Both the position numbers and the translations under genes were made by a program. DNA of 64,000 nt from an uncultured Bdellovibrio sp. (GTDB taxonomy: Bacteria > Bdellovibrionota > UBA1018): the NCBI GenBank assembly GCA_964490895.1, contig CAZBEI010000116.1, forward strand, positions 14,639-78,638. The letters run 5' to 3'. Shown piece by piece: positions 3,912 to 22,141 of the stretch. The notes under the pieces are model-generated. The model was not told where the DNA came from and ran no database searches. It saw only the letters and a list, made by a program, of their open reading frames with translations. Each line of letters starts with the position of its first letter. Position 1 is the first letter of the stretch.

Positions 3912-4133
3912 TTGATTGAGCGGAAAGCATCGACTTCAGGTGGAACATGCTTTCAGTGTTCTCGAACAAGACCCCAGACTGCCATCATTCCATTTGAGGA
4001 ATACGAATCTATGCTGGAAACTCTAGACATTCTTGAAACTGAGCCCGGCATTGTAAAAAAACTCAAAAAAGCACAAGAAGAAATAAAAGCCGGTGATTTT
4101 GTAAAATGGAATAAGGTTAAACGAAAGTCCTAA
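3912..4133 (+). CDS. Phd/YefM-family antitoxin-like ORF, probably 5'-degraded and orphan
   Basis: C-terminal AIIPFEEYESMLETLDILETEPGIVKKLKKAQEEIKAGDFVKW resembles the YefM/Phd core (..AVLIS.EEYESLqETLEll). The N-terminal 23 aa do not fit the family. Downstream is a strong AAGGAG (4154-4159) followed by a 3-codon stub ATG GGA TTG TAA (4171-4182), which looks like the relic of a deleted toxin gene. Confidence 0.35.
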   Translation: MIERKASTSGGTCFQCSRTRPQTAIIPFEEYESMLETLDILETEPGIVKKLKKAQEEIKAGDFVKWNKVKRKS

Positions 4134-4196: not shown

Positions 4197-5069
4197 CTAC
4201 CGCGCCCCTCCCGTACGCAAAAGATCCTTCACAACACTGTACATCACCACGGGGAGGACTTCTAAATCGTCTACCTCACGCAGGGCTCCATGCCCTTTGG
4301 AGGCCAACTCCCTACAAAGCGCGAGGGAAGCTTTTTCCTTTCCCATTTTTAAAACTACCAAGTGTGGAAACCGAGGCGCTAAATACGCAGGATCTCGACC
4401 TGCTGTGTATTTTCCATCTGTCAAAAGTACCGTGGAGGGGGGTCTGCCTTTTCCTCTTTCTAAGAGTGCGTCGACTAAAGCAAGCGAAGTTTTTAGCCCC
4501 TCCTCTAAGTGTGTGTAACCTTGGGCTGGAACATCTAAAAAGCGCTCTACCAATTGTTCAATCGAAATTTTTTCGTCAGGACGTTTCAGGAGAGCTGCTT
4601 CGTTTTCAAAAGCCACAATCCCGATGGGATCCTCTGGAAATTGCAACAACACAACAGCCAGAGCCACAGCAGTCAGCGCGAGTTTTTCTCCCGTCATCGA
4701 CAAGCTTGTATCCACCGTGAGGATCACACCTTGTTTCCGGTGGAGCTGATAGTTCATCCAAATCATTTCAGGGGACGAAAGAAGTGGGTCGTTTTCGAGG
4801 GTCTCCTCTAAATCAAGTTCGGGTTCCATGGCATTTTCTGGAAGTTCGTTCCAAGGCGAAATATTTTGGACTACGGGATGGGTGACGGACCCTAAAATAT
4901 TTTGGGCTTGCTCTAAAACAGCCTGGGCAGAAATTTTTCTAAGATTTTTCGCGATTTTTTTAAACTGTGCCTTTGCTTTAAACTCGTGATATCGCGTCGC
5001 TACATCCCACCCCGACAGAGAAGAAATGTCTAAATCTCCATCCGAAATTTCCGCAGCTTCGGGGGGCAA
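4197..5069 (-). CDS. von Willebrand factor A (VWA) domain protein, partner of the upstream MoxR-type ATPase
   Basis: MIDAS-like motif ILTVDTSLSMTGEKL (DxSxS). 290 aa. Lies immediately downstream of the AAA+ ATPase on the same strand. Confidence 0.65.
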   Translation of the reverse strand: MPPEAAEISDGDLDISSLSGWDVATRYHEFKAKAQFKKIAKNLRKISAQAVLEQAQNILGSVTHPVVQNISPWNELPENAMEPELDLEETLENDPLLSSPEMIWMNYQLHRKQGVILTVDTSLSMTGEKLALTAVALAVVLLQFPEDPIGIVAFENEAALLKRPDEKISIEQLVERFLDVPAQGYTHLEEGLKTSLALVDALLERGKGRPPSTVLLTDGKYTAGRDPAYLAPRFPHLVVLKMGKEKASLALCRELASKGHGALREVDDLEVLPVVMYSVVKDLLRTGGAR

Positions 5070-5119
5070 GAAAAAGGGCTTGTCAAAAACAAGAAGGGGA
5101 GGGACCTTATCTGCCGGAA

Positions 5120-6061
5120 CTAAAGTTTTTTTTTTAAAATCTGATCAATCCACCCTTTGATTAGAACCGCTGTTTCTTCTTGTGTTGAGAGACCGGACTC
5201 CGCATTTCTTTCCATTTCGATCCGTGTGGGAAGGCTTAAAAGAGCTGCTTGGACAAAGGCTTGTTCAAATTTTTTCCCATGCTTTAGAAACACTGCACAC
5301 AGTTGACTGATGCTGAGCGCTGCCCTGACCGAAGCACCTCTCCTCACTTGGGGATGTTGCCGTGTGAGCCGGCAAAGTTGCACTGAAGCTTGTACCAAAA
5401 GAGTTTCCATTTGCTTTTCTAAATCTGTTTTACCCAAGCGAGTTTTTAGAATTTCAATTTCCTCTCCTTCGCTCTGATAATCAATGACCACGAGTTCAAA
5501 TCGGTCTAAAATCGCTTCGCTGAGATGAGAGGTCGCAACAAATTCTTTTGGATTTTGAGTGGCGAGTACTAAAAAACCTAACTTTGCTCTTATTTCTCCG
5601 AGGCGAGGTACCATTATAACTTGCTCGTCGATGGCAGGGAGTAAAATATTCTGAACTCCCTCCGGCAATCGGTTGAGCTCATTGATAAATAAAATCCCAC
5701 CACTCTGCATGGCCTCTACCAATGGCCCTGCAAAAAAAGAGTCCTTCGAAAATCCTTTTTTAATCACACTGGGAGGATCAAACCAACCCGTCAGCTTTTG
5801 TTCTGAGTATCGACTGTCTCCGTCCACACGAAAAACTGGGACACTGAACTCGCAAGTCGCTGCTAAAGCTAAATGCGTTTTGCCCACTCCCACGGGTCCT
5901 TCCAAAAGAACATTTTTCTTAGCCTCGATGCATGCACGCAGCATTTCTAATTCTTTTTGTCTTCCTATACACTTGGCTATACCTGTGGCTATAGACTTGG
6001 CTATACCCTTGGCTTCGCTACGCAGCTTATTTTTTTCTGCTAACACTTTTTTTGCCCTCAC
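5120..6061 (-). CDS. MoxR/CbbQ-like AAA+ ATPase
   Basis: Walker A LLEGPVGVGKTHLA and Walker B-like LFINELNRLP. 313 aa, typical MoxR size. Its start overlaps the kamE stop by 4 nt (6058-6061). Confidence 0.65.
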   Translation of the reverse strand: MRAKKVLAEKNKLRSEAKGIAKSIATGIAKCIGRQKELEMLRACIEAKKNVLLEGPVGVGKTHLALAATCEFSVPVFRVDGDSRYSEQKLTGWFDPPSVIKKGFSKDSFFAGPLVEAMQSGGILFINELNRLPEGVQNILLPAIDEQVIMVPRLGEIRAKLGFLVLATQNPKEFVATSHLSEAILDRFELVVIDYQSEGEEIEILKTRLGKTDLEKQMETLLVQASVQLCRLTRQHPQVRRGASVRAALSISQLCAVFLKHGKKFEQAFVQAALLSLPTRIEMERNAESGLSTQEETAVLIKGWIDQILKKKL

Positions 6062-6831
6062 TTAGGTTTTGTCTTTATATTTTTTCTACGGATAAATTCT
6101 TCCACAATAAAACTGGCGACCTCAGATGGCTTTGTTCCTACCCCAAATCCTGCGTCAAAGCCACACTCGAGCGCCATGGGGTGAGTCACTCTAGGACCCC
6201 CTGCTACAAAAATGAGTTTGTCTCCTAAACCTGCTTTTTTTGCTTGGTCAGTAAGCTCTTTCATGTCTTTGATATGAATATTGTGCTGAGAAACCACTTT
6301 GGAAACTAAAACAGCATCTGCTTTTAACGCAGAGGCTGTTTTGAGAAGTTCCTGATTTAAAACCTGGGCCCCAAGATTTTTAGCTTCCAGCCACTCGTAC
6401 CGCTCCAGCCCATAATCTCCAGCAAAGCCTTTCATATTAAAAATCGCGTCAATACCTACCGTATGGGCATCATAGCCAGTACACGCACCTAAGACAACGA
6501 GTTTTCGTCCGATTTGAGTTTTTATCAATTCGTCTATCTCATCGCGTGAGCGTTTTTGTGCGGCGATTTTAAGAACTTTAACCTTCGTAAAGTCTAAAGA
6601 GTGTTTTGTGTTTCCATAGACCACAAAAAGAGAAAATCCATTGGCTGCTTTTTCCATCGTAGCAATTTTAACTGACTCAAACCCCATTTTGTGGACCAGT
6701 TGCGAAGCGGCTTCTCTGGCTTCGGGGGAGGGTTCTACGGGGAAAGTAAAGCAGAGCTGAACAGTACCATCCCCCATGATGTCTCCGTAAGGCTTTAATT
6801 TTTTTAAATCGGGTTTGGTTTCTGCTCTCAT
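6058..6831 (-). CDS. kamE: Lysine 5,6-aminomutase beta subunit (B12-binding, KamE)
   Basis: Cobalamin-binding signature GACTGYDAHTVGIDAIFNMKGFAGDYGLERYE with N-terminal KPYGDIMGDGTVQLCFTFP. This follows the Clostridium sticklandii KamE sequence closely over its whole length. Confidence 0.8.
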   Translation of the reverse strand: MRAETKPDLKKLKPYGDIMGDGTVQLCFTFPVEPSPEAREAASQLVHKMGFESVKIATMEKAANGFSLFVVYGNTKHSLDFTKVKVLKIAAQKRSRDEIDELIKTQIGRKLVVLGACTGYDAHTVGIDAIFNMKGFAGDYGLERYEWLEAKNLGAQVLNQELLKTASALKADAVLVSKVVSQHNIHIKDMKELTDQAKKAGLGDKLIFVAGGPRVTHPMALECGFDAGFGVGTKPSEVASFIVEEFIRRKNIKTKPK

Positions 6832-6873
6832 TAAGAATGAGAATTTCTCTCAAAATATGGAATAAATCAAATT

Positions 6874-9336
6874 TTATTCACAAAGGGCAACATCCGCACT
6901 GTTTGTGCTCCAACCATCGGAGGTCGTTATAAGCGATACATTTTCAGAGGTGTCAATCACTCTCACATTGATATAGTATTTTTTATCCAGTTTTAGATTG
7001 AGGTCTGTTTCAACGGCCGTTGTTTCTATTCCACTACTTTTCCACTTGAGAACATCAGTTAGTTTGGGTGCACTCCCAATAGAATACTCGTATCTTAAAA
7101 GATCACTAGAGCTTGTAGGTATCCATGAAATAAGCGGGCTGTGAGTGAGAGAGTTACAAGACTCGCCATCTTTGACAGACTCGACAGCAACCGGTGGATC
7201 CATGTCTAATCGTTTTGCTGGAATGTGCCCATTGATATTTACCTGCCAGTGTGTCAGTTTGCCAATGATTTTTTCCCCAAAATCATCAGAGCCATCGATC
7301 ACTTTGAGAGTCCACGTTCCAGCTGACATTTCGTTTAAAAAAGCATTTGCTAAAAAATGTGCATGATCTAGATTCACTTGAGCAATGCTGCTATTGATAT
7401 TCATTAAGATACTTTTAGTCCCACTGGGAGAGTAGAGTTCTATGCCCAAAGTTCCAGCATCATCATGAGTAACGTCGGCTACAATTTCAATAGTCTCAAT
7501 TTCTAGGTTGTGTCGAACTTTTATAGAAGACATTACTCCATCGGCATCTTTGTCTGGGATTTCTAAAGAAAGCTCTCCGCTCCCATAAATCCACCTCTCA
7601 CTATCTTGCAGGTCAACGCGGTTTAAATCTTTTGTCTGAACATAGGATCCAAGTGGATAGGCATAATTTTTTGCCATAGCCACTGCTGCATCTGTATCGA
7701 TGAGTCCAAATCCGTACTGATTATGGAAATAAACCTCTGCTGCGTTTTTTGTCCACCCTTCTTGATAAGTGTAACTTTCTAAATCGAGTCCATCTGGGTG
7801 CCCTGTTGCTCCGCTGTCAGGCTGTATGCGCCTTGCCGTTTTTGCAAGGATGTATTTCATGTCTCTCCAACTCATGTTCGGATTGACACTCAACGCAAGT
7901 GCAGCAACACCCGCGGTTATCGGAGCAGCGGAGGACGTCCCATTCATCCTGCTCGTATAATTACAATTCGGGTTGAGGAGAGACTCGCCCCTTTCGAAGG
8001 GGGTAGTAGCCGTACTCTTTGACAAACCACAGTCACACCCACTAAGATCCGTTGTGACAATAGCAGGATCTCCATTATATCCATGCCCAGCTGGAGCACT
8101 AATCCACACATTTGATCCAGGAGAGGAGTATTGTGTAATTTTACCACTCGAATCGATTGCAGCAGCTGAAATCATTTGAGGGTAGGAGTTGATGGGGTCA
8201 AAATTTGAATTCCCATAATATGCAATCCCATTTAAGAACGGGTTACAAGCTCCAAGATTCTTTCTAAAGTCATTTCCAGCAGCCTTTACATAAATGGCTC
8301 CTTTTCCAGAGCGCAAGTGACTGACCCCAAATTCGAGCTGTTTTAAGTAGAAGGGATCCATATCCGAAACAATGCATTGGGGAGTGCCATAGCTATAATT
8401 AAAAACATCAAAGTCACCCTCTGCCTGATTTTGCAGCATAGAAGTATCCTGTATGCGTCCATCATCTAGCGATAAAAAGAGGAATCCTGCAATGTGAGCA
8501 CCTGGAGCAACGCCTCTACTTCCTATTCCATTCCATCCCGTTGCTGCAATAATTCCAGATACAGCAGTGCCGTGAAAACTACCTCCAGAACAGCTTTTGG
8601 GGGTGGGATCACCCATCCAAGGAGAAGGAAGGTTGTAGTTTTTTGAGACTCCAGGAATGATATTGTCTGCTAAATCTTCATGTTTAATTTCAATACCCGT
8701 GTCAGAAACAGCAATTTTAATACCCGCTCCACTGATTCCTTCAGCGATTGTTTTGTCCATATGAAGGTCCACCCCAGGTACTCCTGAAATATTCGAAAAA
8801 GCTTTTTGACCTATATTTTTGAGATGCCATGCTTCTGTTTTTAAGGGGTCTCCTAAAACATGAATTGAAAAGGGGCCCAATATTTCTGCGATGCCATTTT
8901 TTGTCGCAAAAACTGCGATTCTTTCAAATAAGCCTGGATTATTGGGTATCCCCTCTATTTTTCCGGTCTCGAGATCAAACCTCGCCCAAGGGGGGAGGTT
9001 GTTTGAAAAAAACAAAAGCTTGCTATCTAACAACTGTGGCGCAAACGAATATAAAAAATCTTGTTTCCCGATAAGTATAGGTTTTCCAGAAATCAATACC
9101 CGGGAAGGTATTGAAGCTGGGGGAGGAGGGGGAGGAGGAGTGGAAGCAGGAATAGGCTCTAGGTTTGGCCCAGAAGATGGAGTATTCGCAGGCTTTGGCA
9201 AAGAAACAGCGGGTATCCGATCGGGCGTATTCTCTGGAGTTTGAATTTCAGTTTTTTTTGACACTGTCAGCGTTGAGGGTTGAAAACAAGCTGATGTAAA
9301 AAACATGACTGAAATAACTAATGTGACTGTTTTCAT
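6874..9336 (-). CDS. Secreted subtilisin-like serine peptidase (S8 family), 820 aa, with a Pro-rich N-terminal linker
   Basis: Catalytic triad motifs VSDTGIEIKHEDL (Asp), SFHGTAVSGIIAA (His) and GTSSAAPITAGVAAL (Ser). Signal peptide MKTVTLVISVMFFTSA; run PPPPPPPASIPS. Confidence 0.8.
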   Translation of the reverse strand: MKTVTLVISVMFFTSACFQPSTLTVSKKTEIQTPENTPDRIPAVSLPKPANTPSSGPNLEPIPASTPPPPPPPASIPSRVLISGKPILIGKQDFLYSFAPQLLDSKLLFFSNNLPPWARFDLETGKIEGIPNNPGLFERIAVFATKNGIAEILGPFSIHVLGDPLKTEAWHLKNIGQKAFSNISGVPGVDLHMDKTIAEGISGAGIKIAVSDTGIEIKHEDLADNIIPGVSKNYNLPSPWMGDPTPKSCSGGSFHGTAVSGIIAATGWNGIGSRGVAPGAHIAGFLFLSLDDGRIQDTSMLQNQAEGDFDVFNYSYGTPQCIVSDMDPFYLKQLEFGVSHLRSGKGAIYVKAAGNDFRKNLGACNPFLNGIAYYGNSNFDPINSYPQMISAAAIDSSGKITQYSSPGSNVWISAPAGHGYNGDPAIVTTDLSGCDCGLSKSTATTPFERGESLLNPNCNYTSRMNGTSSAAPITAGVAALALSVNPNMSWRDMKYILAKTARRIQPDSGATGHPDGLDLESYTYQEGWTKNAAEVYFHNQYGFGLIDTDAAVAMAKNYAYPLGSYVQTKDLNRVDLQDSERWIYGSGELSLEIPDKDADGVMSSIKVRHNLEIETIEIVADVTHDDAGTLGIELYSPSGTKSILMNINSSIAQVNLDHAHFLANAFLNEMSAGTWTLKVIDGSDDFGEKIIGKLTHWQVNINGHIPAKRLDMDPPVAVESVKDGESCNSLTHSPLISWIPTSSSDLLRYEYSIGSAPKLTDVLKWKSSGIETTAVETDLNLKLDKKYYINVRVIDTSENVSLITTSDGWSTNSADVALCE

Positions 9337-10080
9337 TTAATTAATTTCCGATTGATGATCAATGATTTCTATTTGTGCATTCGTAATTTTTTTATCTGTG
9401 CTTAAACCAGCTACTATAGAGATGAGGTCTCTTTCGTGGGGAGGGCTGAAAAAAACTACACTTATCCTCTCATTAATGTGCTTGATGCTCAATTGATGGC
9501 GCTCTGCAAGATCTTCAAGGTCGGTCCCCGGTCTATATCCGGCAATGATTGTGCCTGTGACAATTCCAAACCTGTGATTCACTGGATCTTCGACAACTAG
9601 TCGGGATTTGTTTTGTGATATTTTCAATTCTGAGAGATTCTTTATGTTCATTTTGTCTGTTTTGTAGAAAACGACACTACCCATGCGATAGACAATGGGA
9701 CCCAAATTTCTGGAATAGTGGCCCTCATCAATAAAGTCCATATCATTTCTGATGACATAGTTTGTTTTATTAATTTTCAACAACGGAAGCCCAGCAATTT
9801 TTCTTTGTTGTTCTTTTCTGTGTTTTATAAATTCTTTAAATTGAATAGCTGTTAATTTTTTATTACCATCTATCCCCTCGAAAATGTCTGGCTGTACCCG
9901 ATAGGGACTTTGTGCTTTATTTTGTACTCTATTGAAAGACGTACTGGGTGAGTACGCAGGGGCGCGATCTACCTTTTGCTCCTGTCTCAGGTCGGGCCCT
10001 TGGTTAAACAATGAAAAGACAAAACAACCAACGGCAACCACTGTAATAGAAAGAAAAAATAAAGTATTGTGTTTTTTCAT
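9337..10080 (-). CDS. Secreted hypothetical protein, directly abutting the S8 peptidase gene (0-nt gap)
   Basis: 247-aa ORF with signal/anchor (LFFLSITVVAVGCFVF). Its stop is immediately adjacent to the peptidase start codon. Confidence 0.4.
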   Translation of the reverse strand: MKKHNTLFFLSITVVAVGCFVFSLFNQGPDLRQEQKVDRAPAYSPSTSFNRVQNKAQSPYRVQPDIFEGIDGNKKLTAIQFKEFIKHRKEQQRKIAGLPLLKINKTNYVIRNDMDFIDEGHYSRNLGPIVYRMGSVVFYKTDKMNIKNLSELKISQNKSRLVVEDPVNHRFGIVTGTIIAGYRPGTDLEDLAERHQLSIKHINERISVVFFSPPHERDLISIVAGLSTDKKITNAQIEIIDHQSEIN

Positions 10081-10159
10081 AAATCCCCCCTCCCAAGAGC
10101 CCTAGATTAGAATAGTAACACGTTGCACTATACCCTCTCAACGTATTTTTTGTTTAAAA

Positions 10160-11782
10160 TTAGTTTAATAAATTACACGCCGTTTCCACTGTGGCAGGCG
10201 TGTCCGTTTTGACTGTGTTAAAAAATCTCAAAAAAGGATTGAGGTAATCAGGATCTCGCTCTATCACTCCGTCATGGCCTTTGCCGCCTGTTTCTGTACG
10301 ACTGACTGTTGCAAATGCTTTTTCTTCGATGGCCTTAAAAAGTCCTTTTTGATGGACGCCCTCTAAATGAGCTGCTGTTTCCTTCAGAACTTTTTGAGCC
10401 CAGTTCTCAATCATCCCACCTGGCTTAAAGCTGATCTCAGAGCCTAAGTCTCTTGCCCCATTAAAGATATATTTTGCATTTTTAATGCTCATCCATCGAT
10501 CTTGTAAAAGCGGGGTGTGCATGGCTTCGGTGGCCATTCCTAAAAGTTGAATGGTTTGACCAGTCAACACACCTACAAAATTAAACATTGCATCCATCAA
10601 ATGGCTATAAAAAATATCTCCACATTTATAACGAGTGGGAGGCATAAATTTTATGGGTGCGTTGGGAAAAATATCTCGCGTCATTTGAGCTCTTGCAATC
10701 TCAAGCAAAAAAACGTTCGGATGTTCTGGGTTCATCTCTTGCGCGTGCCCAAGTCCCATCAAATCCTCTGTCATGTGTGCATTTTTTGCAAAACATTCGT
10801 TGATAAATTGAGAAGCCAAAACTTGGTGGCCATTTTCGATCGCATCTGCCGTGGTGAGGTAATTGTCCTCCCCTGTGTGAATCACAATTTGAGAGTGCGC
10901 AATTACTAAACGCGAAAAATGTTGATCAATGAGAGTCCTTTTCATATTGATGTCCCGGAAAAGAATTCCATACATCGCGTCGTTTAAGAGGAAATCTAGT
11001 TTTTCTAGCCCCCCCAAGACCGCGATTTCTGGCATGCAAAGCCCGGAACAGTAGTTGGTGAGTCGAATGTAGCGTCCCAGTTTTAAGCTTTCTTCGTCCA
11101 AAGCCTTGCGCATGATCTTAAAGTTTTCTTGAGTGGCATATGTTCCACCAAAGCCTTCTGTCGTAGCTCCATGGGGAACATAATCTAAAAGAGATTGCGC
11201 CGTACTGCGGATCACAGCAACGGCATCTGCCCCAGCTTGAGCAGCAGCTTGAGCTTGAATGACATCATCATAAATATTTCCTGTCGCCACAATCACATAG
11301 AGCAAAGGGCCTTCTTTGCGATGAACCTGAAAGCTATCGGTTGCCTTTTTTCGTAGCGCATCTCGCTCTTCTCTTTTCTCAGTCAGAGTCCTTTTTGCGT
11401 CAAGACAAAGAGCTTTTGCTTTCTCTATGATTTTGGATTCTAGGGCAAAAGGAATTTTGACAAGGTTTATTTTCCCAGAACAAACTTGTGCTGCCAGTTC
11501 TGGGGCAGGCATTTTATGTCGAATCATCCCATTTACAAATGAGCGCAGAACTCCTTTGTTTAAGCAGCCTTCTTTGTTTAAGAGTTCCACCACTTTGTTG
11601 GCCATAGGAAACCACTGTCTTCCTTGTAGGGTCGCACCATGGACTCCTAAAAGTCTCAGAGTCGCACGTTCTATGGCAACCGTCGTGTGCGTTTGGATGA
11701 GTTTGTCAATGGGAACAGCAATTTGTTTTGCGAGCTCTCGACACCGATCAATGATCTTTAGATCTAACGGGAGGTGAGACAT
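10160..11782 (-). CDS. kamD: Lysine 5,6-aminomutase alpha subunit (PLP-binding, KamD)
   Basis: Long collinear similarity to KamD, e.g. PLLYVIVATGNIYDDVIQAQAAAQAGADAVAVIRSTAQSLLDYVPHGATTEGFGGTYATQENFKIMRKAL and ...NYCSGLCMPEIAVLGG...LNDAMYGILFRDINMKRT... Confidence 0.85.
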   Translation of the reverse strand: MSHLPLDLKIIDRCRELAKQIAVPIDKLIQTHTTVAIERATLRLLGVHGATLQGRQWFPMANKVVELLNKEGCLNKGVLRSFVNGMIRHKMPAPELAAQVCSGKINLVKIPFALESKIIEKAKALCLDAKRTLTEKREERDALRKKATDSFQVHRKEGPLLYVIVATGNIYDDVIQAQAAAQAGADAVAVIRSTAQSLLDYVPHGATTEGFGGTYATQENFKIMRKALDEESLKLGRYIRLTNYCSGLCMPEIAVLGGLEKLDFLLNDAMYGILFRDINMKRTLIDQHFSRLVIAHSQIVIHTGEDNYLTTADAIENGHQVLASQFINECFAKNAHMTEDLMGLGHAQEMNPEHPNVFLLEIARAQMTRDIFPNAPIKFMPPTRYKCGDIFYSHLMDAMFNFVGVLTGQTIQLLGMATEAMHTPLLQDRWMSIKNAKYIFNGARDLGSEISFKPGGMIENWAQKVLKETAAHLEGVHQKGLFKAIEEKAFATVSRTETGGKGHDGVIERDPDYLNPFLRFFNTVKTDTPATVETACNLLN

Positions 11783-11791
11783 GTTTAAAAC

Positions 11792-12835
11792 TTACGAATA
11801 AGCTTCCATAAAAATACGGTTTAACTCTGGGCTTTCTCTCAAAATATTAAGGGCCGTTTCTGCATGAGATTCGCAATAGCCGTTTCCAATTCGCAGTTCA
11901 ATATCAGCCCCAATGCCCTCTGCCCCTAGAGCTGCCCTTTGGAAACTTGTAGACATACTAAAAAAATAAACAATCCCATGTGTTCGGCAAGTGAGAATTG
12001 AGGACATTTCGGTATCTGGAATATTGGCAACATTGATGACAAGATCAGCCATCCGCCCTTTTGTCGAATCCCAAACTTTTTCCATTACAGCGACTCCATT
12101 TCTTGCGTCAGCATGGATCACTTCGTCCACAAAAGAAAGAGTGGAGAGGCGATCGATTGCTTCTTTGCTATAGTCCACTGCAATTGTTTTTACCCCTGGC
12201 TGTTTTTTAGCTTGATAGAGGCAAAGCATTCCTGACTTTCCACCACCGCCAATCACTAAAACAGTATTTCCTGCCTGCACGAGCTTTTCGGTTTGAGCGG
12301 GAGCTCCTGCTACATCCAAAACTGCAAGGGCGACTGTTTCTGGAATATCGTCGGGCAATTTTGAAAAAACTCCTGATGCAAACAATATCGCATGCCCCTC
12401 AATATCGACTCGGTCCGTTTTAGGGTGGATTTCTTTTATCTTCTTTATAGAAAGTGGCGTGAGTGAAAGAGAAACCAGAGATGCAATTCGATCTCCAACT
12501 TTGATTGGTTTTTGCTTTACTGGAAAAGTGGGTCCAATTTGCGCAACTGTTCCAATAAACATCCCCCCAGAACCCGTGACGGGATTGTGGAGTTTTCCTC
12601 GTTTATGGACAAGTTGTAAGAGAAACGTTTCAATTTTCTTTATGTTCCCTTCGCAACTTTCAGAAATTTGAAGAAAGCTCACAGAGTCAATATTGAGACT
12701 TTCAACCTCTACTAACAGTTCGTCTTCAGCAATCGGCAAACTTGGATCTAAGGTATCTGCCTGTTGAGGAAGTGTGCCTCTAGGCTCTAAAACTCTCCCT
12801 GTTCCCAAGGGATCAGGACTCCTAAATGAACTCAT
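11792..12835 (-). CDS. kdd: L-erythro-3,5-diaminohexanoate dehydrogenase-like (Kdd) NAD(P)-binding dehydrogenase
   Basis: 347 aa with Rossmann GxGxxG (VLVIGGGGKSGMLCL). Located 9 nt upstream of kamD on the same strand, with its start abutting the stop of the upstream dehydrogenase gene. Confidence 0.55.
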   Translation of the reverse strand: MSSFRSPDPLGTGRVLEPRGTLPQQADTLDPSLPIAEDELLVEVESLNIDSVSFLQISESCEGNIKKIETFLLQLVHKRGKLHNPVTGSGGMFIGTVAQIGPTFPVKQKPIKVGDRIASLVSLSLTPLSIKKIKEIHPKTDRVDIEGHAILFASGVFSKLPDDIPETVALAVLDVAGAPAQTEKLVQAGNTVLVIGGGGKSGMLCLYQAKKQPGVKTIAVDYSKEAIDRLSTLSFVDEVIHADARNGVAVMEKVWDSTKGRMADLVINVANIPDTEMSSILTCRTHGIVYFFSMSTSFQRAALGAEGIGADIELRIGNGYCESHAETALNILRESPELNRIFMEAYS

Positions 12836-13891
12836 TTACAATGACCTCGCTTGATTTAATTTTTCTTCAACAATTTCATCAGCCACTTGGTGCGAAGTGG
12901 TTTCTTCTCTCTTAGATCGCTCTAGAATTTCTGCCATGGTGGAGTAAATTTTTTCGACGTGGGCAAAGGCACGCTCTTTATTGTAACCCCCAGGGAACAT
13001 TTTTTCGTGATAAATATTGATCAGCCCTCCAGCATTGATCACATAGTCTGGAGCATACAATATATTTCTTCGTAACAACTCATTTCCGATCTCTGATGTG
13101 GAAAGTTGATTGTTGGCAGCTCCTGCTATGATTTTTGCACGAATCCGAGGCAAGGTGGTTTCGTTCAGAGTTGCTCCTAAAGCAGAGGGAGAAAAGAGAT
13201 CACATTGAACGTCATAAATCGCATCCGGTCTTGTGATCTCGATCGAATATTTCCGTGTCACACGGTCTATTTTGTCCGGATCAATATCACAGCCAATTAT
13301 TTTTGCACCGTCACTCATGAGATGCTCGATGAGGAAATAGGAAACACTTCCTAGGCCCTGGAGTGCAATGGTCATATTTCGGAGAGTTTGACTTCTAAAA
13401 GCATGCTTAGCACAAGCGCGCATGCCATGAAAAACACCCCACGCTGTGGCAGACGAAGGATCGCCACTTGAACCAGGTTCTCCTTCGATCCCTAAAATGT
13501 GCTTTGTCTTTCGCTTGATGACTTTGAGATCCTCAGAGTCTGTACCCACATCTTTTGCAGTAATATAGTGCCCGCCCAGTCGGTCGACAAATTCTGCAAA
13601 GCGCTCAAACTTTTTTTCCGTTTTTTCGGTCTTAGGGTCCCCCATGATGACCGCTTTTCCACCCCCCCAGTTCAAACCTGAGATAGCAGCCTTGTAGGTC
13701 ATACCTTTAGAAAGCCTCAAAACATCGACCAAGGCCTCAGCTTCAGTTGCATAACTCCACATTCGACAGCCCCCAACGGCTGGGCCAAGCACTGTAGAAT
13801 GGAGAGCAATAATGGCTTTTAATCCTACACGAGAATCACAACAATATACGATTTGCTCAAAGTTTTCGTCTTTAATCCATTCAAATACCAT
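12836..13891 (-). CDS. Leucine/phenylalanine dehydrogenase-family amino-acid dehydrogenase
   Basis: MVFEWIKDENFEQIVYCCD...LGPAVGGCRMW...GLNWGGGKAV...YITAKDVGT...APDYVINAGG matches Glu/Leu/Phe/Val dehydrogenases closely. The listed ORF starts at TTG 13912, but the family N-terminus aligns to ATG at 13891. Confidence 0.75.
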   Translation of the reverse strand: MVFEWIKDENFEQIVYCCDSRVGLKAIIALHSTVLGPAVGGCRMWSYATEAEALVDVLRLSKGMTYKAAISGLNWGGGKAVIMGDPKTEKTEKKFERFAEFVDRLGGHYITAKDVGTDSEDLKVIKRKTKHILGIEGEPGSSGDPSSATAWGVFHGMRACAKHAFRSQTLRNMTIALQGLGSVSYFLIEHLMSDGAKIIGCDIDPDKIDRVTRKYSIEITRPDAIYDVQCDLFSPSALGATLNETTLPRIRAKIIAGAANNQLSTSEIGNELLRRNILYAPDYVINAGGLINIYHEKMFPGGYNKERAFAHVEKIYSTMAEILERSKREETTSHQVADEIVEEKLNQARSL

Positions 13892-14051
13892 ATGACTTCC
13901 CCATTGTGTCAAGGGTCTAACCTATCAAGGGTGTTGGAGGAAAATCAAGTGGGAATTAGGGGCTCCCCTCCATACCTTGCAGATAAAATATTTTAAAAAT
14001 AAAAAAAGCCAACTAATGGTACACCTTATAGAATAAAGGAGACTGTAAAAA

Positions 14052-14240
14052 ATGAAAGACGACTATAAGCTCAAGGGGCCTACGGCAAAAATGCAAATAG
14101 AAGTAGAAAAGGAAGTGCAAGAAATTTTACTTTCTATGGAAAAATATTCAAAATTTTCAGTGTCTGAGTTGACCAACACAGCACTCAAAAGATTTATCTC
14201 TGCTCACAAAGATTTTTTGATGCCGGTGGCAGCAAAATAG
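14052..14240 (+). CDS. Small hypothetical ORF (62 aa) with good RBS (AAGGAG 14038-14043)
   Basis: An ATG preceded by aaggagactgtaaaaa. The product is hydrophilic and low in GC with no recognisable motif. It ends at a TAG that is immediately followed in frame by a foreign-looking gene fragment. Confidence 0.3.
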   Translation: MKDDYKLKGPTAKMQIEVEKEVQEILLSMEKYSKFSVSELTNTALKRFISAHKDFLMPVAAK

Positions 14241-18404: not shown

Positions 18405-20384
18405 CTAAGTAGCAAGATCCATGAGTTCAGAAATATCCATCACCTTGACCTTGCCTTGCATCTCTTTAGACTTCACTCCATCGGTGAGCATTGTCATGCA
18501 AAAAGGACAGCTCGAAGCTACGACCCCGGCATTGGTTTCTAGCGCTTGCTCAGTGCGCGCAATATTGACTCGCTTGCCGGTTTTTTCTTCCATAAACATG
18601 CGGCCCCCGCCTGCCCCACAGCACATGCTTTGATCGTGATTGCTTTTCATTTCTACGACGCGCGCAGAAGGGATTGAAGAAATCACAGAGCGTGGCTCTT
18701 CGTAGATCCCATTCCAGCGGCCCAAGTAACAGCTGTCATGAAAAGTCACAGTCTCATCTACCCCCTTTGTGGGCTTTAACCTTCCGTCCCGAACAAGCTC
18801 TGCAATATATTGCGAATGATGCACAACTTCGTAGTTGCCTCCAAAGTCTTTGTACTCGTTTTTAATCGTATTAAAACAGTGCGGGCAAGAAGTTAAAATC
18901 TTTTTAGGTTTATAGCGATTGAGCGTTTCAATATTGGCTTTCGCTAAAGTTTGATAAAGATACTCGTTCCCAATCCTGCGCGCTGGATCTCCTGTGCATT
19001 TTTCTTCCATCCCTAGAATAGCAAACTTTACCTCTGCTTTTTTTAATAAACTCACCATAGAACGAATGACTTTTTTATTTCTATCGTCATACGATCCGGC
19101 ACATCCCACCCATAAAAGCACATCGACATTGGAATCCTCTGCCATCGTTTTTACAGACAACCCTGATGCCCAGTTAGCTCGATCCGACTGACTGAAAGCC
19201 CACGGAGAGCTATTGGTTTCCATATTTTTAAATACTGTTTGCACTTCGGGTGGAAATCGCGACTCCATCATGACCAAATTGCGGCGAATATCGTAAATTT
19301 TGTCAACTTGCTCGATAAAAACAGGGCACGCAATTTCGCACGCTCGACACGACGTACATGCCCAGATCACATCTTCTGTGACGTTAGAATCTATGATATG
19401 AGAAACCTGATCGCCTTCATGTTTTAAAATCTTATCTTTATTTAAAAAGAGATTATTTTTTAAGTCTAAAATAAGCATTTTAGGCGAAAGCGGTTTGCCT
19501 GTATTCCAGGCAGGACAAAGGTCTTGGCAGCGGCCGCACTCCGTACACGAATAATAATCCAAGGCATCTTTCCACGACAGGTCTGTCACTTTAGCAGCTC
19601 CGTACTGTGTCACTTTTTCGTCTTCGAAGTTGATGGGAGTCATCCCTTTTTCGCGCTGTAGCTTTTTTAAAAAAGTATTAGGCCCCGCAGCCACAATGTG
19701 AAGGTGTTTTGAACTCGGAATATAAACCGAAAATCCGAGCACAATCAAAAGATGCACCCATTTAAAAAAAATACCGAATCCATAATTTGTTGAGGCATCC
19801 AACTGAAACCCACTTAAGCAACTTGCCACAAGACTGGAAACAGGCATTGCATTTTGAAACCATGGAGATTTGCCTAAAAAAGTAAATCCATTCATCAATA
19901 AAATCGACACCATCAAAAGCCCAATAAGGCATAAAATAATGCCAGCGTCTTTGGACTTGCCAAGCCCCTCTGGACGTAGAACATACCTCCGATAACAGGC
20001 AAAAAGCACAGCCAATAAAACTGCTAAAGTAAAAATATCTTGGAAAAAAACTAAAACCGAATATGGGATCTGTCCTATAAATTCAAAATCTGCAGCGCTG
20101 TAAATCGTAGTAGACATTTGTTCGAGTGTGCCCACTGTAATAATGATAAATCCCCAAAAGATAATCGCATGCATGATGCCTGCGCCCCGTTTTTGGAGAA
20201 CTGCTTTTTGCCCCAGGACATTGACAAAGGTAGTCCATATGCGTGCTTTGATTTGATTGAGAGTGGGTCCTTTGCCGCGATGGGACATCATCATTTTGTA
20301 CAATAAATAAAAACGATAGCTAGACAATCCAAAGGCAGAAAATGCAATAGGGAGAAATAGGAAAGTTTGCCAGGTCAAGGTCAT
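18405..20384 (-). CDS. Membrane-bound Fe-S oxidoreductase with two 4Fe-4S ferredoxin motifs and CCG domains (EtfD-like ETF:quinone oxidoreductase candidate)
   Basis: N-terminal multi-TM region; CTECGRCQDLCPA and CTSCRACEIACPV cluster motifs; C-terminal CCGAGGG motifs. Immediately downstream of etfB-etfA on the same strand. Confidence 0.6.
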   Translation of the reverse strand: MTLTWQTFLFLPIAFSAFGLSSYRFYLLYKMMMSHRGKGPTLNQIKARIWTTFVNVLGQKAVLQKRGAGIMHAIIFWGFIIITVGTLEQMSTTIYSAADFEFIGQIPYSVLVFFQDIFTLAVLLAVLFACYRRYVLRPEGLGKSKDAGIILCLIGLLMVSILLMNGFTFLGKSPWFQNAMPVSSLVASCLSGFQLDASTNYGFGIFFKWVHLLIVLGFSVYIPSSKHLHIVAAGPNTFLKKLQREKGMTPINFEDEKVTQYGAAKVTDLSWKDALDYYSCTECGRCQDLCPAWNTGKPLSPKMLILDLKNNLFLNKDKILKHEGDQVSHIIDSNVTEDVIWACTSCRACEIACPVFIEQVDKIYDIRRNLVMMESRFPPEVQTVFKNMETNSSPWAFSQSDRANWASGLSVKTMAEDSNVDVLLWVGCAGSYDDRNKKVIRSMVSLLKKAEVKFAILGMEEKCTGDPARRIGNEYLYQTLAKANIETLNRYKPKKILTSCPHCFNTIKNEYKDFGGNYEVVHHSQYIAELVRDGRLKPTKGVDETVTFHDSCYLGRWNGIYEEPRSVISSIPSARVVEMKSNHDQSMCCGAGGGRMFMEEKTGKRVNIARTEQALETNAGVVASSCPFCMTMLTDGVKSKEMQGKVKVMDISELMDLAT

Positions 20385-20395
20385 TGAAACTCGCT

Positions 20396-21364
20396 CTAGT
20401 GTTCTTTAATTTTTTTAAACTCTTCTTTTAATAGTGGCACAAGAGCAAATAAATCGCCAACAATTCCATAATCTGCTACTTGAAAAATCGGAGCCTCTGC
20501 GTCTATATTGATTGCCACTATGCATTTGGATGTTCTCATTCCTGCCAAATGCTGAATCGCCCCACTGATACCGCAAGCAATATAAAGAGCTGGAGAAACG
20601 ACTTTTCCAGTCTGGCCCACTTGATCTCGATGTGGACGATAGCCAGAGTCTACGGCTGCGCGAGAAGCACCCACTGCAGCCCCTAAAACATCCGCCAATT
20701 CTTCTATGATTTTAAAATTATCCGCGCTCTTAAGAGATCTCCCACCAGACACTACAATGGCCGCTTCCGTGACATCCGGCCTAGCACTTGTACCCTTGAC
20801 GACTTCTAACACTTTTGTTTTGAGGCCAGAAAAATCCACGGCCACAGAGACAACTTCTGCGGACTTCGAAGAGTCTACCTTTGACACTCCAATGGCGTTT
20901 GGCCTGATGCTGGCCACTCTCGGGCCACCACCTAAAAACTCGACCTCTACTGTGGCTTTTCCTGCATAAATGGGGCGCCTCACTTTGAGCGTTGATCCTT
21001 CGATTTGAACTTGCGTGCAATCACTGGCCAGACCCACTCCGAGCTTCGCAGCCAGCTTGGGCATAAAATCTCGACCTGTGGGAGAGTGACTCGCTAAAAT
21101 AATTTCTGGAGAGACCTGTTTTACAACGGCCAAAATAGCGTGTGTGTAGGCTTCTGCAGTATAATATTTTAAAGCAGGTGCTTCGATCAAATGCACTTTC
21201 GAGGCTCCATAGGGACCTAATTCTTTGGAGAGCTGAGAAACGCCCTCTCCTAAAAGCACGACATGGGTTTCGTTTCCTGATTTCGAAGCTGCACCCAAAA
21301 GCTCGAATGTTGATTTTTTAAGCCGTCCCTCTCTTTGTTCTGCAATGACTAAGATTTTTCCCAT
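20396..21364 (-). CDS. etfA: Electron transfer flavoprotein alpha subunit
   Basis: MGKILVIAEQREG... N-terminus and C-terminal FAD-binding PALYIACGISGAIQHLAGM. Confidence 0.85.
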   Translation of the reverse strand: MGKILVIAEQREGRLKKSTFELLGAASKSGNETHVVLLGEGVSQLSKELGPYGASKVHLIEAPALKYYTAEAYTHAILAVVKQVSPEIILASHSPTGRDFMPKLAAKLGVGLASDCTQVQIEGSTLKVRRPIYAGKATVEVEFLGGGPRVASIRPNAIGVSKVDSSKSAEVVSVAVDFSGLKTKVLEVVKGTSARPDVTEAAIVVSGGRSLKSADNFKIIEELADVLGAAVGASRAAVDSGYRPHRDQVGQTGKVVSPALYIACGISGAIQHLAGMRTSKCIVAINIDAEAPIFQVADYGIVGDLFALVPLLKEEFKKIKEH

Positions 21365-21367
21365 GAG

Positions 21368-22141
21368 TTACACCACCTTTGCTTCTTCGTGTAAAAGTCT
21401 GACCAGCTCTTTGGCTTGTAATGCAGGATCTCCTGCAATTTTCTTTCCTGCTTGTTTAGGAGGCGGCAGCTGAAAGTTTTTGTACCGAATCTTTTGGTCA
21501 TTTTCTCCTACACCTAACTCAGCTGCCTTATAGGCTTTCACTTCTTTTTTCTTAGCCTTCATAATATTGGGTAAAGTAGCGTAGCGAGGTTCATTCAAAC
21601 CTTTCTGAGCTGCAATCACTGCGGGCACGCTCACCTGCACCATCTCGTATGCACCACCCTCGATCTCGCGTTTGCACTTCAAAGAATCTGCACTATACTC
21701 CACATTCAAAATAACCGTGACATAGGGAAACCCTAAATACTCCGCTAAAAGTTGGCTCACCTGTGCTGCTCCATCATCAATGGCTTCTTTGCCAGTAAAA
21801 ACAAGATCCACTTTGGCTTCTTTTTGAAGTGCTGCTGCCAATGCTTTTGCAGCACTGTTATTATCTGCAGTTTCTAGCAGCTCAATATGAATTCCACTAT
21901 CTGCTCCCATTGCAAGGGCTGTCCTCAAAGAATCCACCACTCGCGCAGGCCCTGCACTTAAAACCGTCACTGTGCTTCCTGTATTTTTTTCTTTGAGCCG
22001 CAAAGCCTCTTCGATTGCAAATTCGTCATAGGGAGAAATAATCCATTTGACACCTGCTGTGTCAATCCCACTATTGTCAGAATTGAGTTTTATTTTTGTC
22101 TCCGTGTCTGGAACTTGTTTGACACATACATAGATGTTCAT
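21368..22141 (-). CDS. etfB: Electron transfer flavoprotein beta subunit
   Basis: MNIYVCVKQVPDTE... N-terminus typical of EtfB. 257 aa. Lies 3 nt upstream of etfA. Confidence 0.85.
   Translation of the reverse strand: MNIYVCVKQVPDTETKIKLNSDNSGIDTAGVKWIISPYDEFAIEEALRLKEKNTGSTVTVLSAGPARVVDSLRTALAMGADSGIHIELLETADNNSAAKALAAALQKEAKVDLVFTGKEAIDDGAAQVSQLLAEYLGFPYVTVILNVEYSADSLKCKREIEGGAYEMVQVSVPAVIAAQKGLNEPRYATLPNIMKAKKKEVKAYKAAELGVGENDQKIRYKNFQLPPPKQAGKKIAGDPALQAKELVRLLHEEAKVV

What the first reader, a model, noticed from the sequence alone, without database searches (positions are those of the whole stretch)
4197..6831. B12-binding KamE overlaps by 4 nt the start of a MoxR-type AAA+ ATPase gene, which is followed by a VWA protein gene: candidate reactivation/cofactor-exchange chaperone for lysine 5,6-aminomutase
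The kamE stop overlaps the start of a MoxR/CbbQ-like AAA+ ATPase gene by 4 nt (6058-6061). A VWA-domain (MIDAS) gene follows 50 nt downstream, so all three lie in one transcription unit. MoxR-VWA pairs are the known chaperone module for metal or cofactor insertion and release (CbbQ/CbbO, NorQ/NorD, CoxD/CoxE). Adenosylcobalamin enzymes suffer suicide inactivation and usually need ATP-dependent reactivases (DhaFG, EutA, MeaB). No such factor is genetically defined for Kam as far as I know. The VWA gene is also visibly GC-richer than its neighbours.
Basis: partly seen in the sequence, partly recalled or inferred. Interest (0 to 1): 0.7.

Follow-up and report, generated by a model that had tools for sequence, protein, structure and literature searches.

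The report
MoxR–VWA chaperone pair coupled to lysine aminomutase
In predatory Bdellovibrionota bacteria, the gene for the vitamin-B12-binding subunit of lysine 5,6-aminomutase is almost always followed by a NorQ/NorD-like ATPase and adaptor pair, in genomes whose sampled loci lack the usual reactivase genes, so the pair is a credible but unproven new kind of helper for a B12 enzyme.

Summary
KamE (6058-6831, minus strand) is followed by an AAA+ gene (5120-6061) whose first possible GTG overlaps the kamE TGA by 4 nt. A MIDAS-bearing VWA gene (4197-5069) follows 50 nt later.

The arrangement is conserved. Of 70 Bdellovibrionota species loci with enough upstream sequence, 57 have kamE directly upstream of the ATPase. 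VWA follows in 71/71. The 4-nt overlap recurs in 32/61 loci. In a divergent subgroup the pair lies between kamE and kce.

- The claim that no Kam reactivation factor is genetically defined is outdated. NCBIfam carries KamB/KamC "lysine 5,6-aminomutase reactivase" models, and 26/29 well-flanked anaerobe kam clusters hold them.
- Those clusters never hold the AAA+/VWA pair (0/80). Bdellovibrionota loci never hold KamB/KamC (0/81). This fits non-orthologous replacement.
- Against an exclusive role, 13/70 loci keep an intact pair without adjacent kam genes. Three are precise ELFV-AAA-VWA operons. Fused AAA-VWA relatives elsewhere are also kam-less.

Both predicted structures match the NorQ/NorD complex best. 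Verdict: a NorQD/CbbQO-like remodeller, probably serving KamDE. Cofactor-exchange reactivation is inferred, not shown.

The parts
6058..6831 (-). kamE, the B12- and PLP-binding beta subunit of lysine 5,6-aminomutase
   Evidence: NF052385, 335.9 bits against a cut-off of 280. PF16554 and PF02310 are present. About 50% identical to the solved KamE chains 8t0v, 9q1a and 1xrs. The DAHTVG and NMKG motifs are invariant in the alignment.
6058..6061 (-). GTGA junction where the kamE stop (TGA) overlaps the first possible AAA+ start (GTG)
   Evidence: Read directly from the sequence. The same 4-nt overlap is found in 32 of 61 related loci, with a median distance of -4.
5120..6061 (-). MoxR-class AAA+ ATPase of the CbbQ/NorQ/GvpN subgroup; an alternative start lies at 6046
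   Evidence: AAA_5 70.5 bits. Predicted structure pLDDT 88.8. Best structural matches are NorQ (E 2e-18, target-normalised TM 0.8) and CbbQ. Walker A is GPVGVGKT. Walker B reads INELNR, with Asn in place of Asp, in all 78 family members examined.
4197..5069 (-). Short (290 aa) VWA/MIDAS adaptor protein
   Evidence: VWA_2 37.6 bits. Predicted structure pLDDT 88.3. The NorD VWA domain from the NorQD complex is rank 2 by Foldseek and gives the longest alignment. The MIDAS motif DTSLS is kept in 77 of 78 relatives. VWA follows the ATPase in 71 of 71 informative loci.
10160..11782 (-). kamD, the alpha subunit of lysine 5,6-aminomutase
   Evidence: NF052384, 750.3 bits against a cut-off of 600; PF09043.
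11792..12835 (-). kdd, 3,5-diaminohexanoate dehydrogenase
   Evidence: NF052381, 246.8 bits against a cut-off of 200.
12836..13912 (-). Glu/Leu/Phe/Val-family amino-acid dehydrogenase (ELFV), first gene of the operon
   Evidence: PF02812 and PF00208. It lies upstream of kdd in about half of the related loci, and directly upstream of the ATPase in the kam-less loci L011, L012 and L052.
6874..10080 (-). Two-gene cassette inserted between kamD and kamE: a 247-aa protein with an ORF_2_N domain, then an 820-aa subtilase with a P-domain. It is not part of the conserved system.
   Evidence: It is absent from all related loci and has no flanking repeats.
14052..14240 (+). Conserved 62-aa companion ORF, which usually lies directly after VWA on the same strand
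   Evidence: 84% identical to the small ORF that follows VWA in L163. This ORF is adjacent to VWA on the same strand in 46 of 71 loci, including kam-less ones. It has no Pfam family.

Best explanation
The AAA+ protein and the VWA protein form a minimal NorQ/NorD- or CbbQ/CbbO-type remodelling machine. It is made together with lysine 5,6-aminomutase, through translational coupling to kamE, and has KamDE as a client.

Inferred mechanism. The VWA adaptor docks on the ATPase hexamer, and its MIDAS metal ion binds an acidic residue on KamDE. ATP-driven movement of the adaptor then pries the KamE B12 domain open, so that inactive cobalamin can leave and fresh adenosylcobalamin can bind. This would parallel the way CbbQO frees Rubisco from inhibitory sugar phosphates.

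In Bdellovibrionota the pair would take the place of the KamB/KamC reactivase found in anaerobes.

Shown here: gene identities, the folds, the conserved operon and 4-nt coupling, and the complementary distribution with KamB/KamC.
Inferred: physical interaction with KamDE, and cofactor exchange as the outcome.
For: 1. Linkage. kamE is directly upstream of the ATPase in 57 of 70 informative GTDB species loci, and VWA follows in 71 of 71.
2. Coupling. The stop/start overlap of 4 nt is present in 32 of 61 loci and the gap never exceeds 29 nt.
3. In a KamE-centred sample, 6 of 6 loci have the pair downstream.
4. A 48%-identical ATPase (L172) again overlaps kamE by 4 nt and has a Kce-family (BKACE) gene nearby.
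5. In the divergent subgroup the order is ELFV-kdd-kamD-kamE-AAA-VWA-kce, so the pair is embedded among pathway genes.
6. Complementary distribution. Of 80 anaerobe-type kamE loci, none has the pair, and 26 of 29 with full flanks have KamB and/or KamC. None of the 81 Bdellovibrionota sources has KamB or KamC.
7. Both predicted structures match the NorQ-NorD complex and CbbQ best.
8. Walker A and MIDAS are intact.
9. Fused AAA-VWA proteins exist, which shows the two work as one unit.
10. 5,6-LAM is known biochemically to need an ATP-dependent reactivating protein, E2 (PMC9081730, read).
Against: - Thirteen of 70 loci keep an intact pair, with Walker A and MIDAS preserved, but have no kam genes next to it.
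- In L011, L012 and L052 kdd-kamDE is missing and the ATPase directly follows the ELFV dehydrogenase gene. In L011 the junction is again a GTGA overlap.
- These three loci are not each other's closest relatives, so the loss happened more than once.
- Fused relatives, 52-53% identical in the ATPase half, sit in unrelated contexts with no kam genes.
- The Walker B aspartate is replaced by asparagine throughout the family, so normal ATPase activity is not assured.
- The VWA protein lacks the N-terminal client-binding domain and linker of NorD and CbbO.
- All the linkage comes from one phylum that also shares the flanking genes (Ast genes upstream, EtfD/ETF downstream), so some of the synteny is inherited.
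- There is no experimental or interaction evidence.
Confidence: 0.45

Rival explanations
1. The pair is a general-purpose MoxR-VWA chaperone whose main client is something other than KamDE. It sits beside kamE because kdd-kamDE occupies a slot just upstream of it in a chromosomal neighbourhood inherited across Bdellovibrionota.
For: - Thirteen of 70 loci keep intact AAA-VWA, often with the small ORF, but without kam genes.
- ELFV-AAA-VWA operons show the same tight coupling.
- Fused relatives in other lineages lie among peptidases or unrelated genes.
- The flanking Ast and EtfD/ETF genes are also syntenic across loci.
- The small companion ORF travels with the pair and not with kamDE.
Against: - At 48-70% protein identity gene order is usually scrambled unless it is selected, yet here the 4-nt overlap with kamE is kept in 32 loci.
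- The pair is embedded between kamE and kce in a deep subgroup.
- Bdellovibrionota kam loci lack any KamB/KamC, although the enzyme is known to need reactivation.
- No alternative client gene is consistently adjacent.
Confidence: 0.27
2. The pair does serve KamDE, but as an assembly or cofactor-loading chaperone for newly made enzyme. It would help form the alpha2beta2 complex or insert AdoCbl or PLP the first time, and would not reactivate damaged enzyme.
For: - Characterised MoxR-VWA systems such as NorQD, CoxDE and the MoxR system of methanol dehydrogenase mostly act at maturation or cofactor insertion (PMC13036017, read; titles and abstracts listed).
- Translational coupling to kamE would deliver the chaperone at the moment KamE is made.
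Against: - Recombinant C. sticklandii KamDE assembles and binds its cofactors without helpers (Chang & Frey 2000, as cited in PMC9081730).
- The protein the pair appears to replace is annotated as a reactivase.
- CbbQO shows that this class can also act repeatedly on mature enzyme.
Confidence: 0.15
3. The pair matures another enzyme of the operon. One candidate is metal insertion into the zinc-dependent cleavage enzyme Kce; Kdd and the ELFV dehydrogenase are others.
For: - kce directly follows VWA in seven full-length divergent loci, and a kce fragment follows it in L077. A BKACE gene lies near the pair in L172.
- ELFV is the gene coupled to the ATPase in L011, L012 and L052.
- Metal insertion is the classic MoxR-VWA job.
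Against: - kce is absent from most loci and from this 64-kb window.
- ELFV is missing from many loci that have kdd-kamDE-AAA-VWA.
- ELFV-family dehydrogenases need no inserted cofactor (established knowledge of the family).
- The gene consistently coupled to the ATPase is kamE.
Confidence: 0.08

Closest known systems
NorQ/NorD, the chaperone that inserts FeB into nitric oxide reductase
   Same: Best structural match for both proteins. For the ATPase, NorQ gives E 2e-18 and target-normalised TM about 0.8. For the VWA protein, the NorD VWA chain in the NorQD complex is rank 2 and gives the longest alignment. Both systems are a separate ATPase plus a MIDAS-bearing VWA partner encoded beside the client's genes.
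   Different: NorD is 69 kDa, with an N-terminal domain and a linker that are essential for remodelling (PMC13036017). The protein here is 290 aa and is essentially the VWA core with a short N-terminal helix and hairpin. The presumed client is a soluble B12/PLP enzyme and not a membrane haem-iron enzyme. The Walker B motif reads NE and not DE.
CbbQ/CbbO Rubisco activase
   Same: CbbQ is among the top structural matches (6l1q and 5c3c). It is the best functional analogy, because it repeatedly frees a mature enzyme from a tightly bound inhibitory ligand using a MIDAS contact and ATP.
   Different: CbbO is far larger than the VWA protein here. The client, the ligand and the lineage all differ. 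There is no sequence-level orthology (NCBIfam gives only sub-threshold GvpN and MadB hits).
KamB/KamC, annotated as lysine 5,6-aminomutase reactivase (the likely genes for the biochemical E2 factor)
   Same: They occupy the equivalent place in the kam cluster, next to kamDE. The presumed job is the same: ATP-dependent reactivation. The distribution is mutually exclusive in the loci sampled.
   Different: There is no homology. KamC is a MutS2-like ATPase and KamB is unrelated to VWA proteins. KamB and KamC lie upstream of kamD, whereas the pair lies downstream of kamE. I found no open-access experimental paper on KamB/KamC.
RavA/ViaA of E. coli
   Same: A MoxR ATPase with a VWA partner that associates with soluble or respiratory enzymes. 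One of them, LdcI, is an enzyme of lysine metabolism (PMC10585395 and PMC7806604, listed).
   Different: RavA belongs to a different MoxR subgroup and has a LARA domain. It forms a cage with LdcI and is not known to exchange cofactors. No structural or sequence closeness was seen here.
Classical B12-enzyme reactivases and chaperones: DdrAB/GdrAB, EutA and MeaB/MMAA
   Same: The proposed outcome is the same: nucleotide-driven release of damaged cobalamin from an AdoCbl enzyme. These genes are also linked to their client's genes.
   Different: The folds are entirely different (an ASKHA/Hsp70-like ATPase, or a G3E GTPase). No similarity was detected in the Pfam, NCBIfam or PDB searches.
CobS/CobT and BchI/BchD chelatase motors
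   Same: An AAA+ motor paired with a VWA subunit. Weak NCBIfam hits of both proteins fall on the cobaltochelatase model TIGR02442. Fused AAA-VWA relatives mimic the BchD architecture.
   Different: Scores are far below the cut-offs (about 32 bits against 779). No CobN/BchH-like partner is present. Those systems act on tetrapyrrole biosynthesis and not on a finished B12 enzyme.

Membership tests
MoxR-class AAA+ ATPase (CbbQ/NorQ/GvpN subgroup) | Match to the AAA_5/AAA_3 family models above Pfam's cut-off | tested here: met
   AAA_5 70.5 bits against a cut-off of 22; AAA_3 44.2 bits against 27.
MoxR-class AAA+ ATPase (CbbQ/NorQ/GvpN subgroup) | Walker A motif GxxGxGKT | tested here: met
   GPVGVGKT in 72 of 78 family members; the remaining variants keep the GKT.
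MoxR-class AAA+ ATPase (CbbQ/NorQ/GvpN subgroup) | Walker B motif hhhhDE (Mg-binding Asp plus catalytic Glu) | tested here: inconclusive
   The motif reads (I/V)LFINELNR. The Glu is kept, but the Asp is Asn in every one of the 78 members. The aligned, active Midasin domains have DE at this position. The consequence for ATP hydrolysis is unknown.
MoxR-class AAA+ ATPase (CbbQ/NorQ/GvpN subgroup) | Whole-protein fold like the solved members NorQ and CbbQ, with the ATQNP and DRF motifs | tested here: met
   Model pLDDT 88.8. NorQ chains rank 1-10 (E down to 2e-18, target-normalised TM 0.76-0.84). CbbQ entries 6l1q and 5c3c follow. The IATQNPKEF and AILDRFEL motifs are conserved.
MoxR-class AAA+ ATPase (CbbQ/NorQ/GvpN subgroup) | Adjacent gene for a VWA/MIDAS partner | tested here: met
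   VWA follows the ATPase in 71 of 71 informative loci. Fused versions exist.
MoxR-class AAA+ ATPase (CbbQ/NorQ/GvpN subgroup) | Membership of a named orthologous group (GvpN, NorQ, CbbQ or MadB) by NCBIfam equivalog cut-off | tested here: not met
   The best hit is GvpN at 69.2 bits against a cut-off of 266.8. MadB scores 48.5 against 475. It is a separate, unnamed subfamily.
NorD/CbbO-type VWA adaptor | VWA fold with a complete MIDAS motif (DxSxS...T...D) | tested here: met
NorD/CbbO-type VWA adaptor | Large N-terminal client-binding domain plus a linker (NorD is 69 kDa; CbbO is larger) | tested here: not met
   The protein is 290 aa. Only about 110 residues (helices and a hairpin) precede the VWA core. 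NorD's architecture is taken from PMC13036017.
NorD/CbbO-type VWA adaptor | A finger inserted into the ATPase pore, and a C-terminus docking on the post-sensor-1 loop | not testable with these tools
   No complex prediction was available. The long Foldseek alignment to NorD chain G (270 columns) is only suggestive.
Lysine 5,6-aminomutase (KamDE) | Both subunits score above the NCBIfam equivalog cut-offs | tested here: met
   KamD 750.3 bits against 600; KamE 335.9 bits against 280.
Lysine 5,6-aminomutase (KamDE) | B12-binding DxHxxG motif in KamE, and conservation of the NMKG lysine with solved KamE | tested here: met
   DAHTVG and NMKG are invariant in an alignment that includes the solved KamE chain 8t0v. 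That this lysine is the PLP-binding residue is my own recollection and was not tested.
Lysine 5,6-aminomutase (KamDE) | kamD and kamE adjacent | tested here: not met
   In this window they are separated by a 3.3-kb cassette. They are adjacent in the related loci.
Known B12-enzyme reactivases (KamB/KamC, DdrAB/GdrAB, EutA, MeaB) | Homology to any known reactivase family | tested here: not met
   Neither the pair nor any other gene in the window or in the Bdellovibrionota loci matches KamB or KamC. This was tested by tblastn at E <= 1e-3 and by NCBIfam.
Known B12-enzyme reactivases (KamB/KamC, DdrAB/GdrAB, EutA, MeaB) | Gene linkage with the client B12 enzyme | tested here: met
   57 of 70 loci, with conserved 4-nt coupling.
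Known B12-enzyme reactivases (KamB/KamC, DdrAB/GdrAB, EutA, MeaB) | Nucleotide-dependent release of damaged cobalamin and restoration of activity | not testable with these tools
   This needs biochemistry.

The most novel reading that the evidence does not exclude
A MoxR-VWA machine of the NorQD/CbbQO class acts as the reactivase of an adenosylcobalamin enzyme. It would eject inactive cobalamin from KamDE and would have replaced the unrelated KamB/KamC reactivase in aerobic predatory Bdellovibrionota. That would be a further, mechanistically distinct solution to B12-enzyme repair, beside the known reactivase types, and the first cofactor-exchange client for this chaperone class.
Probability: 0.35. 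Interest if true: 0.75.

Novelty: new variant of a known kind. Interest (0 to 1): 0.55.

Why it matters
Adenosylcobalamin enzymes inactivate themselves during turnover and depend on dedicated repair proteins. For lysine 5,6-aminomutase that factor (E2) was described biochemically decades ago, and a 2022 review still describes it only biochemically.

If the pair does this job, MoxR-VWA remodellers would gain a new type of client. So far they are known for metal insertion and for Rubisco activation. The finding would also give a clean case of non-orthologous replacement of a reactivase. It could explain how an oxygen-sensitive radical enzyme is kept working in aerobic predators. Finally, it would provide a compact two-protein helper for using 5,6-LAM in biocatalysis, for example in beta-amino-acid or nylon-precursor routes.

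Even if the reactivase reading fails, the family is a well-defined, unnamed MoxR-VWA subfamily with an unusual Asn-Glu Walker B motif.

Tried and rejected
- Literature. Searches for KamB/KamC, for 'aminomutase reactivase' and for MoxR plus aminomutase found no paper on either system. One search was wasted on surname matches.
- Promoter and terminator scan. Promoter-like sites occur at the chance rate, and no terminator lies between the three genes. This is uninformative beyond 'no boundary seen'.
- Rfam scan of the whole window found only a tRNA. There is no B12 or lysine riboswitch.
- PADLOC gave only generic P-loop hits, so an anti-phage system reading was rejected.
- Horizontal transfer of the VWA gene, suggested by its GC content, was rejected. 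The excess is small, and the gene is syntenic and 60-70% identical across the family.
- The repeat search around the kamD/kamE insertion found no target-site duplication or terminal repeats.
- I considered that ELFV-AAA-VWA is the ancestral state and that kdd-kamDE was inserted later. I rejected this for L011, L012 and L052, because each is nearer to kam-linked members than to the others, and the deepest kam-linked subgroup already has the full order. It remains possible for the basal kam-less clades (L064/L080 and L072/L076/L081).
- The afdb50 fold library was unavailable.


Full report
**What is in the window**

On the minus strand, from 13912 down to 4197, lies one tightly packed gene string:
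- a Glu/Leu/Phe/Val-family amino-acid dehydrogenase (ELFV, 12836-13912)
- kdd (11792-12835; NF052381 246.8 bits, cut-off 200)
- kamD (10160-11782; NF052384 750.3 bits, cut-off 600)
- a 247-aa protein with an ORF_2_N domain (9337-10080)
- an 820-aa subtilase with a P-domain (6874-9336)
- kamE (6058-6831; NF052385 335.9 bits, cut-off 280)
- an AAA+ ATPase (5120-6061; AAA_5 70.5 bits)
- a VWA protein (4197-5069; VWA_2 37.6 bits)

The sequence shows GTGA at 6061-6058, so the first possible ATPase start overlaps the kamE stop by 4 nt. A second GTG at 6046 is the start used for the database copy of this protein (P0001, 308 aa). The VWA TTG start lies exactly 50 nt after the ATPase stop. No terminator-like site separates the three genes. 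The VWA gene has GC 0.48 against 0.43-0.44 for its neighbours.

**Is the arrangement conserved?**

The ATPase belongs to a large family whose listed members are 62-71% identical. A scan of one genome per GTDB species with an alignment of this family returned 80 loci. Nearly all are titled as Bdellovibrionota-type lineages (Bacteriovoracaceae, Oligoflexia, Bdellovibrionia); a few carry other titles, which I take to be mis-binned MAGs.

tblastn with the window's proteins shows the order [ELFV]-kdd-kamD-kamE-AAA-VWA in most loci.
- Of 70 loci with at least 1 kb upstream of the ATPase, 57 have kamE directly upstream. This figure comes, with L036 and L075 counted as linked because their matches overlap.
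- VWA follows the ATPase in 71 of 71 informative loci.
- The distance from the kamE stop to the first possible ATPase start has a median of -4 and equals exactly -4 in 32 of 61 loci. It never exceeds +29.
- Starting instead from KamE, six Bdellovibrionota-type KamE proteins on long contigs all have the ATPase and VWA genes immediately downstream.
- A more distant unfused member (ATPase 48% identical) again overlaps a kamE gene by 4 nt and has a BKACE (Kce-family) gene 3 kb away.
- In a divergent subgroup (ATPase 51-56% identical) kce directly follows VWA. The pair is therefore embedded in the pathway operon ELFV-kdd-kamD-kamE-AAA-VWA-kce. In L068 the Kce match scores 382.3 bits against a cut-off of 382.

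**What canonical kam clusters carry instead**

A metagenome scan used a KamE alignment headed by a solved KamE sequence (8t0v). It returned 80 anaerobe-type loci from gut, digester and sediment samples. None has a homologue of the ATPase or the VWA protein within up to 8 kb, by tblastn at E <= 1e-3.

A representative cluster, L113, reads kce-kdd-kamA-kamB-kamC-kamD-kamE. NCBIfam names two of its genes 'lysine 5,6-aminomutase reactivase subunit KamB' (NF052386, 301.6 bits, cut-off 210) and 'reactivase ATPase KamC' (NF052383, 366 bits, cut-off 300; MutS2-like). Of 29 canonical loci with full flanks, 26 carry KamB and/or KamC.

The window and all 80 Bdellovibrionota loci have no KamA, KamB or KamC match.

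I found no open-access experimental paper on KamB/KamC. A 2022 review still describes the E2 reactivating protein only biochemically (PMC9081730). The mutually exclusive distribution fits non-orthologous replacement. The 80 canonical loci are, however, a narrow slice, all 70-76% identical to the 8t0v KamE.

**What the two proteins are**

By sequence against PDB chains, the ATPase matches Midasin AAA domains, NorQ and CbbQ. Its predicted structure (pLDDT 88.8) matches NorQ chains best (E 2e-18, target-normalised TM about 0.8), then CbbQ.

MIDAS (DTSLS, then the invariant T186 and D218) is intact here, and the DxSxS part is kept in 77 of 78 relatives. Walker A is canonical.

Walker B reads INELNR in all 78 members, with Asn where active Midasin domains have Asp.

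NCBIfam places the ATPase in no named orthologous group; the best hit is GvpN at 69 bits against a cut-off of 267.

An exhaustive profile search with the VWA family found 86 clusters (at 50% identity) with E <= 1e-30. These include proteins of about 585 aa whose N-terminal half is 52-53% identical to the window's ATPase. Such natural fusions show that the two proteins work as one machine.

The 2026 NorQD study shows how this class works. A VWA finger sits in the ATPase pore, the VWA C-terminus docks on the post-sensor-1 loop, and ATP-driven rotation remodels the client, which the authors suggest is engaged via the MIDAS motif or the linker (PMC13036017). The protein here lacks NorD's N-terminal domain and linker.

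**Evidence against an exclusive KamDE role**

Thirteen of 70 loci have the pair but no adjacent kam genes.
- In L011, L012 and L052 the ATPase directly follows the ELFV dehydrogenase gene, and in L011 the junction is again a GTGA overlap. Arginine-succinyltransferase-pathway genes lie upstream, so this is the same chromosomal site with kdd-kamDE missing.
- These three loci are each closer to kam-linked members (68-73% ATPase identity) than L052 is to the other two (61-62%). This points to repeated loss.
- All the exceptions keep Walker A and the NE Walker B motif, and all but one keep the DTSLS-type MIDAS motif; in L064 only a divergent DxSxS match was found. None has an in-frame stop.
- Other kam-less loci lie in different contexts. 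One (L066/L069) is next to a B12-binding radical SAM gene.
- The fused relatives sit among peptidase genes or in what looks like an archaeal contig, with no kam genes within 8 kb.
- A conserved small ORF of 57-72 aa follows VWA in 46 of 71 loci, including kam-less ones. It travels with the pair and not with kamDE.

I could not test whether the kam-less genomes carry kamDE elsewhere.

**Conclusion**

The pair is a real, conserved, minimal NorQD/CbbQO-like remodeller. In most Bdellovibrionota it is translationally coupled to kamE, and it occupies the niche that KamB/KamC fill in anaerobes.

The most likely reading (confidence about 0.45) is that KamDE is its client and that it keeps the enzyme loaded with intact adenosylcobalamin. 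The specific cofactor-exchange step is inferred by analogy with CbbQO and with the known need of 5,6-LAM for an ATP-dependent reactivating protein.

The main rival (about 0.27) is a more general chaperone that merely neighbours kamDE by descent. Other possibilities are first-time assembly or cofactor loading of KamDE, and maturation of another operon enzyme.

I file it as a new variant of a known kind: a MoxR-VWA chaperone with a possible new class of client.

Noticed in passing
window 6874-10080 (minus strand): A two-gene cassette lies between kamD and kamE in the same orientation. It encodes a 247-aa protein with an ORF_2_N domain and an 820-aa subtilase with a proprotein-convertase P-domain. 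None of the 86 related loci has it, and no flanking repeats were found. kamE, the ATPase and VWA may therefore depend on read-through or on a promoter inside the cassette.
   Followed up: partly
window 14052-14240 (plus strand); for example L162:9886-10125 and L165:10016-10231: A conserved small ORF (consensus MKDDYK...SELxNTALKRFISAHKDFLP; 62 aa in the window) has no Pfam family. It directly follows VWA on the same strand in 46 of 71 related loci, including kam-less ones. It could be a third component or a small regulator of the AAA-VWA module.
   Followed up: partly
window 4197-14240 versus 18405-23318: In related loci the order is operon(+), small ORF(+), EtfD(-), ETF alpha/beta(-), aminotransferase(-). 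Here the small ORF and the EtfD/ETF genes keep their orientation, but the whole ELFV-to-VWA block is inverted. As a result the small ORF is divergent from ELFV and no longer follows VWA.
   Followed up: partly
window 1-64000 and loci L002-L081: No lysine 2,3-aminomutase (kamA) was found in the window or in any Bdellovibrionota locus, and kce appears only in a divergent subgroup. The source of beta-lysine, the true substrate of this KamDE, and the role of the ELFV-family dehydrogenase at the head of the operon are all unclear.
   Followed up: partly
window 5680-5700 (ATPase residues about 118-130): The Walker B motif reads INELNR. The Mg-binding Asp is replaced by Asn in all 78 family members examined and in the fused relatives, while the catalytic Glu is kept.
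   Followed up: partly
L011:9940-9960, L012:9960-9995, L052:9960-9980: Three species have kdd-kamD-kamE missing, leaving ELFV joined directly to the ATPase gene. In L011 the junction is again a GTGA stop/start overlap.
   Followed up: yes
L066:7448-9043 and L069 (same arrangement): A kam-less copy of the AAA-VWA pair lies just downstream of a B12-binding radical SAM gene. This could be coincidence, or a hint of a wider link to B12 enzymes.
   Followed up: no
L163:3359-5414: Another genome has a different insertion inside the operon, between kdd and kamD: a radical SAM gene and an epimerase gene on the opposite strand. It also has extra genes between ELFV and kdd. This operon tolerates insertions.
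   Followed up: no
P0417, P0422, P0431 (loci L167-L170): Single-chain AAA-VWA fusions of about 585 aa are 52-53% identical to the window's ATPase in their N-terminal half. They occur outside the kam context, one of them in a contig whose gene content looks archaeal.
   Followed up: partly
window 3912-4133 (plus strand): A 73-aa ORF just downstream of VWA on the opposite strand shows weak similarity to Phd/YefM antitoxins (E 0.007). No toxin partner was seen, and a 600-nt AT-rich non-coding stretch follows it.
   Followed up: no
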